Shown here: positions 17,501-20,500 of the stretch, one piece after another
Numbering within the stretch: the first letter of the stretch is position 1
Layout: every line of letters begins with the position of its first letter
Assembly (NCBI RefSeq): GCF_003334815.1
Contig: NZ_QOWO01000011.1
DNA: 64,000 bases
Reading direction: 5' to 3' (one strand)
DNA from: Escherichia coli
GTDB taxonomy: Bacteria > Pseudomonadota > Gammaproteobacteria > Enterobacterales > Enterobacteriaceae
Position numbers: made by a program

Positions 17501-20500
17501 GCACCAAAACGCGCGAAATCCTCGCCAAAACCGGTAAATCGCAAAACCAACGTTTTCAACGAACAGGTGCGCTATGCCTTCCACGGCGCATTGCAGGATC
17601 TGAAAAGCAAACCGTTCGCCACGTTTTTAACGGTGATGGTTATCGCCATTTCTCTGACGCTGCCCAGCGTCTGTTATATGGTGTACAAAAACGTTAACCA
17701 GGCGGCGACGCAGTATTATCCGTCACCGCAAATCACTGTTTATCTGCAAAAAACGCTGGACGATGACGCTGCTGCGGGCGTGGTGGCACAGTTGCAGGCC
17801 GAGCAAGGCGTGGAGAAAGTGAACTATCTTTCTCGTGAAGACGCACTGGGTGAGTTCCGTAACTGGTCTGGTTTTGGTGGTGCGCTGGATATGCTGGAAG
17901 AAAACCCGCTTCCGGCAGTGGCGGTGGTGATCCCGAAACTCGATTTCCAGGGGACGGAATCACTGAATACGCTGCGTGATCGTATCACGCAGATTAACGG
18001 CATTGACGAAGTGCGGATGGATGACAGCTGGTTTGCCCGTCTGGCGGCGTTGACCGGGCTGGTCGGGCGCGTTTCGGCGATGATCGGCGTGTTGATGGTG
18101 GCGGCCGTGTTCCTCGTCATCGGTAACAGTGTGCGTCTGAGTATCTTTGCTCGCCGTGACTCCATTAACGTACAGAAACTGATTGGTGCGACAGATGGAT
18201 TCATCCTGCGCCCGTTCCTGTATGGTGGCGCACTGCTGGGATTTTCTGGCGCATTGTTGTCATTAATTTTGTCAGAAATTCTGGTGCTGCGATTGTCATC
18301 GGCGGTTGCGGAAGTGGCACAGGTTTTCGGAACGAAGTTTGATATCAATGGCTTATCATTCGATGAATGCCTGCTATTGCTGCTGGTATGCTCGATGATT
18401 GGCTGGGTGGCAGCGTGGCTTGCCACGGTACAACATTTACGCCACTTTACGCCTGAATAATAAAAGCGTGTTATACTCTTTCCCTGCAATGGGTTCCGTA
18501 GCAGGGAAAGAGACCCCGTTGTCTCTTCCCGGTATTTCATCTCTATGTCACATTTTGTGCGTAATTTATTCACAAGCTTGCATTGAACTTGTGGATAAAA
18601 TCACGGTCTGATAAAACAGTGAATGATAACCTCGTTGCTCTTAAGCTCTGGCACAGTTGTTGCTACCACTGAAGCGCCAGAAGATATCGATTGAGAGGAT
18701 TTGAATGACTGACAAAATGCAAAGTTTAGCTTTAGCCCCAGTTGGCAACCTGGATTCCTACATCCGGGCAGCTAACGCGTGGCCGATGTTGTCGGCTGAC
18801 GAGGAGCGGGCGCTGGCTGAAAAGCTGCATTACCATGGCGATCTGGAAGCAGCTAAAACGCTGATCCTGTCTCACCTGCGGTTTGTTGTTCATATTGCTC
18901 GTAATTATGCGGGCTATGGCCTGCCACAGGCGGATTTGATTCAGGAAGGTAACATCGGCCTGATGAAAGCAGTGCGCCGTTTCAACCCGGAAGTGGGTGT
19001 GCGCCTGGTCTCCTTCGCCGTTCACTGGATCAAAGCAGAGATCCACGAATACGTTCTGCGTAACTGGCGTATCGTCAAAGTTGCGACCACCAAAGCGCAG
19101 CGCAAACTGTTCTTCAACCTGCGTAAAACCAAGCAGCGTCTGGGCTGGTTTAACCAGGATGAAGTCGAAATGGTGGCCCGTGAACTGGGCGTAACCAGCA
19201 AAGACGTACGTGAGATGGAATCACGTATGGCGGCACAGGACATGACCTTTGACCTGTCTTCCGACGACGATTCCGACAGCCAGCCGATGGCTCCGGTGCT
19301 CTATCTGCAGGATAAATCATCTAACTTTGCCGACGGCATTGAAGATGATAACTGGGAAGAGCAGGCGGCAAACCGTCTGACCGACGCGATGCAGGGTCTG
19401 GACGAACGCAGCCAGGACATCATCCGTGCGCGCTGGCTGGACGAAGACAACAAGTCCACGTTGCAGGAACTGGCTGACCGTTACGGCGTTTCCGCTGAGC
19501 GTGTACGCCAGCTGGAAAAGAACGCGATGAAAAAATTGCGTGCTGCCATTGAAGCGTAATTTCCGCTATTAAGCAGAGAACCCTGGATGAGAGTCCGGGG
19601 TTTTTGTTTTTTGGGCCTCTGTAATAATCAATTTCCCCTCCGGCAAAACGCCAATCCCCACGCAGATTGTTAATAAACTGTCAAAATAGCTATTCCAATA
19701 TCATAAAAATCGGGTATGTTTTAGCAGAGTATGCTGCTAAAGCACGGGTAGTCATGCATAAAACGAAATAAAGTGCTGAAAAACAACATCACAACACACG
19801 TAATAACCAGAAGAATGGGGATTCTCAGGATGAACATAAAGGGTAAAGCGTTACTGGCAGGATGTATCGCGCTGGCATTCAGCAATATGGCTCTGGCAGA
19901 AGATATTAAAGTCGCGGTCGTGGGCGCAATGTCCGGTCCGGTTGCGCAGTACGGTGACCAGGAGTTTACCGGCGCAGAGCAGGCGGTTGCGGATATCAAC
20001 GCTAAAGGCGGCATTAAAGGCAACAAACTGCAAATCGTAAAATATGACGATGCCTGTGACCCGAAACAGGCGGTTGCGGTGGCGAACAAAGTCGTTAACG
20101 ACGGCATTAAATATGTGATTGGTCACCTCTGTTCTTCATCAACGCAGCCTGCGTCTGACATCTACGAAGACGAAGGCATTTTAATGATCACCCCAGCGGC
20201 AACCGCGCCGGAGCTGACCGCCCGTGGCTATCAGCTGATCCTGCGCACCACCGGCCTGGACTCCGACCAGGGGCCGACGGCGGCGAAATATATTCTTGAG
20301 AAAGTGAAACCGCAGCGTATTGCTATCGTTCACGACAAACAGCAATACGGCGAAGGTCTGGCGCGAGCGGTGCAGGACGGCCTGAAGAAAGGCAATGCAA
20401 ACGTGGTGTTCTTTGATGGCATCACCGCCGGGGAAAAAGATTTCTCAACGCTGGTGGCGCGTCTGAAAAAAGAGAATATCGACTTCGTTTACTACGGCGG

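What the first reader, a model, noticed from the sequence alone, without database searches (positions are those of the whole stretch)
18585..18611. DnaA box embedded in the spacer of the rpoH sigmaE-type promoter
The perfect DnaA-box consensus TTATCCACA (minus strand, 18590-18598) lies inside the 16-bp spacer between GAACTT and TCTGA. This places a replication-initiator binding site where it can occlude the envelope-stress promoter of the heat-shock sigma factor. DnaA control of rpoH promoters has been reported, and the sequence shows the arrangement directly.
Basis: partly seen in the sequence, partly recalled or inferred. Interest (0 to 1): 0.2.

Follow-up and report, generated by a model that had tools for sequence, protein, structure and literature searches.

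The report
Known DnaA box in rpoH P3 promoter
A binding site for the replication initiator DnaA sits inside the envelope-stress promoter of the E. coli heat-shock sigma factor gene rpoH; the site is real, strictly conserved in enteric bacteria and bound in vivo, but it was described in 1989, so it is textbook rather than new.

Summary
The window is the E. coli ftsYEX-rpoH-livJ region. GAACTT (18585-18590), 16 bp, TCTGA (18607-18611) is the sigmaE-type rpoH P3 promoter. The perfect DnaA box TTATCCACA lies on the minus strand at 18590-18598: eight bases in the spacer, one shared with the -35.

One perfect box per 64 kb is what chance gives. What makes this one real:
- It has a convergent partner box, TTATTCACA (18566-18574), 15 bp upstream.
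- AACTTGTGGATAA is the longest invariant run of the intergenic alignment of 68 distinct enterobacterial sequences, and it ends exactly where the 9-mer ends.
- Both boxes and the 15-bp gap survive in divergent lineages whose flanks have changed.
- A 2024 ChIP-seq study lists this very sequence among 16 DnaA-bound regions in E. coli, with the weakest enrichment (4x).

Reviews cite Wang and Kaguni (1989) for DnaA binding to and repressing the rpoH promoter. The sigmaE promoter upstream of rpoH is widespread in gamma- and beta-proteobacteria. The DnaA boxes were found only in E. coli's closer enterobacterial relatives.

The site also overlaps a CRP-like site, a CytR-like motif and a sigma70-like promoter. 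Interest is low.

The parts
18585..18590 (+). -35 element GAACTT of the sigmaE-dependent rpoH P3 promoter
   Evidence: Sequence; the only GAACTT-N15-17-TCTGA in the window. GAACTT is named as the -35 of rpoH P3 in PMC6435447. AACTT is invariant in 68 distinct enterobacterial sequences.
18590..18598 (-). Perfect consensus DnaA box TTATCCACA (plus strand TGTGGATAA), at about -28 to -20 of P3
   Evidence: the only perfect box in the window. It is the same site as the DnaA-bound sequence in ChIP-seq Table 1 of PMC11317965, mapped to NC_000913.3 3600890-3600898. It is invariant in 113 of 117 related loci, which give 43 distinct local variants.
18607..18611 (+). -10 element TCTGA of rpoH P3, within cGGTCTGAt
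   Evidence: It fits the sigmaE -10 motif (T/C)GGTCAAAA with the preferred 16-nt spacer. It reads TCTGA in 41 of 43 distinct variants.
18617..18618 (+). Predicted P3 transcription start (inferred, not a mapped start)
   Evidence: Published sigmaE promoters have a 5-6 nt discriminator and start on a purine. This points to A18618, which is -87 from the rpoH ATG and NC_000913.3 3600870 by the arithmetic.
18566..18574 (+). Second DnaA box TTATTCACA (fits TTATNCACA), convergent with the first, 15-bp gap
   Evidence: A TTATNCACA-like 9-mer sits at the same 15-bp distance in all 43 distinct variants: 30 perfect, 12 with one mismatch, 1 with two. All four bases occur at the N position.
18579..18587 (-). 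Degenerate 'second box' TTCAATGCA, proposed in the ChIP-seq paper as a 2-bp-spaced double box
   Evidence: Table 1 of PMC11317965. It matches the consensus at only 4 of 9 positions, and positions 18579-18584 vary among relatives, so conservation does not support it.
18590..18605 (.). CRP-like site TGTGG-ATAAAA-TCACG overlapping the DnaA box
   Evidence: Two mismatches to TGTGA-N6-TCACA. TCAC at 18601-18604 is invariant in the main alignment but absent in L128 and L161, which keep the DnaA boxes.
18577..18584 (+). CytR-like octamer CTTGCATT (GTTGCAT in most relatives)
   Evidence: rpoH is listed as a CytR regulon member in PMC3454398. The exact operator assignment is my inference.
18589..18617 (+). 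Sigma70-like hexamer pair TTGTGG-17-TAAAAC, candidate rpoH P4; its -35 lies under the DnaA box
   Evidence: Hexamer scoring (3/6 and 4/6). Calling it P4 is an inference from memory of the literature.
18705..19559 (+). rpoH coding sequence (sigma32, 284 aa)

Best explanation
This is the known DnaA operator of the E. coli rpoH promoter region. EsigmaE starts transcription at rpoH P3 from GAACTT-16 bp-TCTGA. A high-affinity DnaA box fills positions about -28 to -20 of P3 and shares a base with the -35. A second, weaker box lies 15 bp upstream, at about -52 to -44, facing the first. DnaA bound here occupies the DNA that sigmaE region 4 and the polymerase must contact. It also covers the -35 of the overlapping sigma70 promoter (probably P4). 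It therefore lowers transcription from these two promoters by steric exclusion and leaves the distal P1 alone. The expected result is that part of sigma32 synthesis is tied to the level or activity of the replication initiator. Shown here: the sequence arrangement, its strict conservation, and its identity with a site reported as DnaA-bound in vivo. Taken from the literature: binding and repression. Inferred: the steric mechanism, the P4 assignment and the physiological role.
For: Anatomy. The sigmaE motif and its preferred 16-nt spacing are. rpoH P3 is described as exclusively sigmaE-transcribed, with a GAACTT -35. DnaA ChIP-seq finds 16 bound regions in E. coli, including rpoH, with the sequence tTTATCCACAagTTCAATGCAa. 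That string maps to window 18590-18598 and flanks, at NC_000913.3 3600890-3600910. Only 13 of the 32 perfect boxes in the genome are bound, so binding here is selective. Wang and Kaguni 1989 is cited for DnaA binding to and repressing rpoH. De-repression of rpoH in dnaA46 cells is stated. Conservation: AACTTGTGGATAA is the longest invariant run in the 244-column intergenic alignment of 68 distinct sequences. All five fully invariant 9-column windows lie inside it. The run stops exactly at the end of the 9-mer, and positions 18599-18600 and 18605 vary. The upstream box keeps its 15-bp distance in all 43 variants and varies mostly at the N position. The divergent loci L128 and L161 have unrelated flanks and lack the TCAC half-site, yet keep both boxes and the gap.
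Against: ChIP-seq coverage at rpoH is only 4x control, the lowest of the 16 regions. The peak centre, 3600944, is about 50 bp from the box. In the one expression data set read here, rpoH rose about 2-fold in dnaA46 cells against 2.5-fold in wild type at 42 C, so there is no obvious extra de-repression. The same bases also form a CRP-like site and the -35 of a sigma70-like promoter, so part of the conservation could serve those signals. The primary footprinting and transcription paper could not be read, and mapped start sites could not be retrieved.
Confidence: 0.82

Rival explanations
1. The 9-mer is conserved mainly because it is part of other overlapping signals: the left half of a CRP site used by the cAMP-CRP/CytR complex and the CRP-dependent promoter, plus the -35 of P4. 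DnaA binding would then be a weak by-product with little physiological effect.
For: TGTGG-N6-TCACG has 2 mismatches to the CRP consensus, and a CytR-like TTGCAT lies next to it. TCAC at 18601-18604 is invariant in the main alignment. rpoH is a recognised CytR/CRP target. DnaA ChIP enrichment is the lowest of all bound regions. The rise of rpoH mRNA in dnaA46 cells is no larger than in wild type.
Against: CRP does not constrain the N6 bases, yet ATAA at 18595-18598 is invariant, and invariance ends exactly at the DnaA 9-mer boundary. G18594 departs from the CRP consensus A but gives the highest-affinity DnaA box. L128 and L161 have lost the TCAC half-site but keep both DnaA boxes at the same spacing. 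The partner box varies at the DnaA N position, as expected for a DnaA site.
Confidence: 0.12
2. The box pair serves mainly as a chromosomal DnaA titration or reservoir site (datA-like), and any effect on rpoH transcription is incidental.
For: DnaA titration on chromosomal boxes is an established idea. This is a perfect box paired with a second box.
Against: Occupancy is very low: 4x here against 213x at datA. The site lies about 325 kb from oriC by the coordinates, and the titration study does not list rpoH among the DnaA-regulated genes inside its box-dense chromosomal region. The exact register with the -35 and -10 elements is conserved, which a titration site would not need.
Confidence: 0.04
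3. The box is a chance occurrence of a 9-mer, with no function.
For: One perfect box per 64 kb is what shuffled sequence gives (0.42 expected). Most perfect boxes in E. coli are not bound (19 of 32).
Against: It is bound in vivo. It is invariant across 43 distinct variants while neighbouring spacer positions change. A partner box is kept at a fixed distance.
Confidence: 0.02

Closest known systems
rpoH P3/P4 DnaA operator of E. coli (Wang and Kaguni 1989, J Biol Chem 264:7338)
   Same: It is the same locus and the same sequence. The window is 100% identical to K-12 MG1655 here. Two DnaA boxes lie in the rpoH promoter region, and DnaA is reported to repress it.
   Different: Nothing differs. 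This is that element. The details of that paper (two footprinted sites; repression of P3 and P4 but not P1) are from my memory, because the paper is not held.
DnaA autorepression at the dnaA promoter, and DnaA-repressed mioC and uvrB promoters
   Same: A consensus DnaA box lies within or next to core promoter elements, repression is by occupancy, and these loci are also among the ChIP-seq-bound regions.
   Different: Those promoters use sigma70. Here the occluded promoter uses the ECF sigma factor sigmaE. The partner box is convergent with a 15-bp gap, not a same-direction 'double box' with a 2-3 bp gap.
Canonical sigmaE promoters (rpoE P2, degP/htrA, micA)
   Same: They share GGAACTT-16 nt-TCNAA architecture with an invariant C in the -10.
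   Different: The spacer of a sigmaE promoter is normally not conserved. Here the spacer carries a strictly conserved operator for an unrelated protein.
Comparative study of rpoH regulatory regions in enteric bacteria (Ramirez-Santos et al. 2001, Nucleic Acids Res 29:380)
   Same: By my memory, it reported that the promoters and the DnaA, CRP and CytR boxes upstream of rpoH are conserved among enterics, which is what searches show. That a paper with this title exists is supported.
   Different: The present set is larger (43 distinct variants, plus 77 more distant proteobacterial loci). It adds that the boxes are missing outside the closer relatives although the sigmaE promoter remains.

Membership tests
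sigmaE (RpoE, ECF) dependent promoter | -35 motif GGAACTT | tested here: met
   tGAACTT at 18584-18590, 6 of 7. Most relatives have GGAACTT.
sigmaE (RpoE, ECF) dependent promoter | 16-nt spacer (range 15-19) and a -10 motif (T/C)GGTCAAAA with a conserved C | tested here: met
   The spacer is 16 nt. cGGTCTGAt matches 6 of 9, including GGTC. TCTGA occurs in 41 of 43 variants.
sigmaE (RpoE, ECF) dependent promoter | Transcription start 5-6 nt after the -10, on a purine, mapped experimentally | not testable with these tools
   A18618 is available at the right distance. No mapped-start data could be retrieved.
sigmaE (RpoE, ECF) dependent promoter | Transcription depends on sigmaE | not testable with these tools
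   Literature only. rpoH P3 is described as 'exclusively transcribed by sigmaE' and is the standard sigmaE reporter.
DnaA box / DnaA-regulated promoter | 9-mer matching TTATNCACA (best sites TTATCCACA) | tested here: met
   A perfect TTATCCACA lies at 18590-18598 on the minus strand. TTATTCACA lies at 18566-18574 on the plus strand.
DnaA box / DnaA-regulated promoter | DnaA occupies the site in vivo or in vitro | not testable with these tools
   Published ChIP-seq lists this sequence as bound, at 4x control. The footprinting is in Wang and Kaguni 1989, which could not be read.
DnaA box / DnaA-regulated promoter | The site overlaps core promoter elements, so that binding can affect initiation | tested here: met
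   The box spans about -28 to -20 of P3 and shares a base with the -35. It also overlaps a sigma70-like -35.
DnaA box / DnaA-regulated promoter | Purifying selection on the 9-mer itself | tested here: met
   The 9-mer is invariant in 68 distinct sequences, the invariant run ends at the box boundary, and the box is kept where flanks diverge.
DnaA box / DnaA-regulated promoter | Transcription changes when DnaA level or activity changes | not testable with these tools
   Secondary citations only. The one microarray description read is equivocal for rpoH.
'Double DnaA box' (two same-direction boxes 2-3 bp apart; PMC11317965) | A second recognisable box 2-3 bp from the first | tested here: not met
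   The proposed partner TTCAATGCA matches the consensus at 4 of 9 positions. Its non-promoter positions (18579-18584) vary freely among relatives. The conserved partner is instead the convergent box 15 bp away.
CRP binding site | TGTGA-N6-TCACA with few mismatches, both half-sites conserved | tested here: inconclusive
   There are two mismatches at 18590-18605. Both halves are invariant in the main set, but the right half is lost in L128 and L161. CRP binding itself was not tested.

The most novel reading that the evidence does not exclude
The unit under selection is a convergent pair of DnaA boxes, TTATNCACA-N15-TGTGGATAA, 24 bp centre to centre, bracketing the -35 of the sigmaE promoter. It is not the 2-bp-spaced 'double box' assigned to rpoH in the 2024 ChIP-seq study. 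The pair was added to a much older sigmaE promoter only in E. coli's closer enterobacterial relatives. If so, DnaA would bind here in a head-to-head geometry different from the one proposed to dominate in vivo. The link between replication and the heat-shock sigma factor would then be a lineage-specific addition.
Probability: 0.45. Interest if true: 0.25.

Novelty: already known. Interest (0 to 1): 0.08.

Why it matters
The site links three major control systems: envelope stress (sigmaE), cytoplasmic heat shock (sigma32) and replication initiation (DnaA). That link has been in the literature since 1989, is cited in current reviews of DnaA as a transcription factor, and was re-detected by ChIP-seq in 2024. 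For a genome scan it serves mainly as a positive control: reading the sequence alone recovered a real, experimentally supported operator inside a promoter. This check adds two modest points. The conserved partner of the consensus box is the convergent box 15 bp upstream, not the degenerate adjacent one. The boxes are a late addition, limited to closer enterobacterial relatives, to an ancient sigmaE promoter.

Tried and rejected
- Primary papers. Wang and Kaguni 1989 (JBC and J Bacteriol) and the Thomason 2015 start-site paper are not held. [quoted passage not shown] So the mapped P3/P4 starts and the footprints could not be checked directly.
- A full-text search for the promoter string GAACTTGTGGATAAAATCAC found nothing. 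A search for 'P3 and P4' together with DnaA also found nothing.
- The generic sigma70 and terminator scan did not flag this promoter. That is expected for an ECF promoter, so the result carries no information.
- Rfam returned no match in 15000-22000.
- The 'double DnaA box' reading from the ChIP-seq paper was considered and rejected for this locus on conservation grounds.
- A perfect TTATCCACA upstream of rpoH in Vibrio hannami was examined as possible independent evidence. It is not in the sigmaE-like promoter, and sister Vibrio species have TTATGCATA there. One such hit among 77 distant loci is close to what chance gives, about 0.2 by my arithmetic (350 bp x 2 strands / 4^9 per locus), so it was set aside.
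- CRP-driven conservation was considered as the sole explanation and rejected, because L128 and L161 lack the TCAC half-site but keep both boxes.

Full report
**What is there.** The window around the finding is the E. coli ftsY-ftsE-ftsX / rpoH / livJ region. The ORF starting at 18705 encodes the 284-aa sigma32. The 601 bases around the finding are 100% identical to K-12 MG1655 and occur in all 5426 complete E. coli genomes, under ftsX and rpoH annotations. In NC_000913.3 the rpoH ATG is at 3600783.

The sequence reads ...TTTATTCACAAGCTTGCATTGAACTTGTGGATAAAATCACGGTCTGATAAAACAG....
- GAACTT is at 18585-18590 and TCTGA at 18607-18611, leaving a 16-bp spacer.
- TGTGGATAA, which is TTATCCACA on the minus strand, is at 18590-18598.
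- Pattern searches return exactly these coordinates.
- One correction to the finding: base 18590 belongs both to the box and to the -35 hexamer.

**Is it more than chance?** Taken alone, the 9-mer is not. Shuffled windows contain 0.42 perfect boxes on average, and 32 of 100 shuffles contain at least one. The relaxed consensus TTWTNCACA occurs 6 times against 5.2 expected. However, two of those six sites lie 15 bp apart here. The second is TTATTCACA at 18566-18574 on the plus strand, convergent with the perfect box. The sigmaE-type pattern is itself rare, at 0.06 expected.

**Related sequences.** One scan of representative genomes with RpoH gave 80 loci across gamma- and beta-proteobacteria. 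One DNA-pattern scan of metagenomes, using the rpoH ribosome-binding region, gave 120 enterobacterial loci.
- Of 117 loci with at least 200 nt of upstream sequence, 113 carry [G/A]AACT followed directly by TGTGGATAA. These give 43 distinct local variants.
- I aligned 68 distinct upstream sequences over 244 intergenic columns. The longest invariant run is AACTTGTGGATAA (18586-18598), and all five fully invariant 9-column windows lie inside it.
- The run ends exactly at the end of the DnaA 9-mer. Positions 18599-18600 and 18605 in the same spacer vary, and so does 18575-18580 just upstream.
- The upstream box is always found at the same 15-bp distance. Of the 43 variants, 30 fit TTATNCACA perfectly, 12 have one mismatch and 1 has two. 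T, A, C and G all occur at the N position.
- Two divergent metagenome lineages are the most informative. L128 and L161 encode RpoH about 90% identical to Enterobacter and Citrobacter over the part available. Their flanks are unrelated to E. coli, yet they keep both boxes and the 15-bp gap.

**Distribution.** Beyond the closer relatives the boxes are absent, although a sigmaE-like promoter often remains.
- Acerihabitans and two related metagenome loci have GAACTA-N16-TCT[C/T]A without a box.
- A simple regular expression finds GAACTT-N15-17-TCNNA-type promoters upstream of rpoH in Pasteurellaceae, Pseudomonas and Stutzerimonas, xanthomonads, methylotrophs and some beta-proteobacteria. None has a DnaA box in the spacer.
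- The sigmaE promoter is therefore old, and the DnaA boxes are a later addition in E. coli's closer enterobacterial relatives.
- The taxonomy of the metagenome loci is only approximate. It rests on RpoH identity to the named genomes.

**Literature.**
- Held papers describe rpoH P3 as exclusively sigmaE-transcribed, with GAACTT as its -35.
- The published sigmaE motif is GGAACTT, a preferred 16-nt spacer, (T/C)GGTCAAAA, and a 5-6 nt discriminator before a purine start. This fits, and it predicts a start at 18617-18618.
- Several papers cite Wang and Kaguni 1989 for DnaA binding to the rpoH promoter and repressing it.
- A 2024 ChIP-seq study found only 16 DnaA-bound regions in E. coli. One is upstream of rpoH, with the sequence tTTATCCACAagTTCAATGCAa.
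- That string maps to NC_000913.3 3600890-3600910, which is this box. The paper's coordinates fit version .3, not .2 as its footnote says.
- The same study notes that only 13 of the 32 perfect boxes in the genome are bound, so occupancy here is selective. At 4x control, however, it is the weakest of the 16.

**Mechanism.** With +1 at about 18618, the perfect box covers roughly -28 to -20 of P3 and touches the -35. The upstream box covers roughly -52 to -44. A sigma70-like pair, TTGTGG-17-TAAAAC at 18589-18617, places a -35 directly under the box. From memory of the literature I take this to be P4. DnaA bound here should exclude both EsigmaE and Esigma70, which matches my recollection that P3 and P4, but not P1, are repressed. 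The steric mechanism is inferred. Binding and repression are from the literature. The arrangement and its conservation are shown here.

**Rival readings.** The same bases form a CRP-like site, TGTGG-N6-TCACG, with two mismatches. It lies next to a CytR-like TTGCAT, and rpoH is a known CRP/CytR target. This could explain part of the conservation, but it does not explain:
- the invariance of ATAA;
- the G at 18594;
- the exact boundary of the invariant run;
- the retention of both boxes in L128 and L161, which lack the TCAC half-site.

The 'double box' partner proposed in the ChIP-seq paper, TTCAATGCA, matches the consensus at only 4 of 9 positions and is not conserved outside the -35 bases. The conserved partner is the convergent box. 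A titration-only role is unlikely given the low occupancy and the conserved register with the promoter elements. Chance is excluded by the conservation and by the ChIP data.

**Limits.**
- The primary papers and all start-site tables were unavailable, so the P3 start is predicted, not verified.
- The one expression data set read gives no clear DnaA effect on rpoH beyond the authors' own statement.
- The aligned sequences are related to one another, so invariance counts are not independent events.
- The metagenome set was selected through a conserved ribosome-binding-site pattern.

**Verdict.** The feature is already known, so interest is low. The modest additions from this check are the conserved convergent-pair geometry and the phylogenetic restriction of the boxes relative to the ancient sigmaE promoter.

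Noticed in passing
window 18472-18526: Just after the ftsX stop codon lies an invariant TATA (18472-18475) inside gTTATACTc, a candidate -10 for the distal rpoH promoter P1. It is followed by two adjacent hairpins at 18480-18508 and 18509-18526 (-24.3 kcal/mol, z = -4.6). In Enterobacter and Citrobacter the first stem, CCCTGCA/TGCAGGG, is kept while the loop differs. This could be a 5' stem-loop of the P1 transcript or the ftsX terminator.
   Followed up: partly
window 18546-18561: TGTCACA is invariant and TTTTGTGCG nearly so in the enterobacterial alignment. The pair resembles a sigma54 -24/-12 element (TGGCAC-N5-TTGC) and may be the published sigma54-dependent rpoH promoter P6. 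If so, the upstream DnaA box would lie near its start site.
   Followed up: no
window 18577-18605: A CytR-like octamer (CTTGCATT; GTTGCAT in most relatives) and a CRP-like site (TGTGGATAAAATCACG) are interleaved with the -35 element and the DnaA box. At least four regulators and three promoters appear to share about 60 bp.
   Followed up: partly
L017 1390-1398 (Vibrio hannami): A perfect TTATCCACA lies on the minus strand about 103 nt upstream of rpoH, downstream of a sigmaE-like GAACC-N16-GTCATA that is conserved at the end of ftsX in Vibrio. Sister species have TTATGCATA at the aligned position. This is probably chance.
   Followed up: partly
L009, L010, L022, L027, L033, L037, L043, L047, L053, L058, L060-L062, L071 and others (100-200 nt upstream of rpoH): GAACTT-N15-17-TC(T/C/A)NA sigmaE/AlgU-type promoters lie upstream of rpoH across Pasteurellaceae, pseudomonads, xanthomonads and some beta-proteobacteria. 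Many share a spacer ending in ...TTAGCA(C/G)TC.
   Followed up: no
L128 and L161 (metagenome contigs Ga0153936_100185 and one further contig): These are divergent enterobacterial lineages whose rpoH upstream regions are otherwise unalignable with E. coli. They still keep TTAT(T/C)CACA-N15-TGTGGATAA around GAACT. In L161 both boxes are perfect consensus.
   Followed up: partly
NC_000913.3 3600890-3600944 (window 18544-18598): The ChIP-seq paper PMC11317965 says its coordinates are NC_000913.2, but its rpoH peak position fits only NC_000913.3. Its oriC positions also look like version .3, from my memory of the oriC coordinates. The rpoH peak centre lies about 50 bp upstream of the perfect box.
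   Followed up: yes
L123 and L092 (human-gut metagenome contigs): These contigs have E. coli-like upstream sequence, but the translated RpoH shows only 44-48% ungapped-style identity. This most likely reflects frameshifting assembly errors in low-coverage contigs, not real variants.
   Followed up: no
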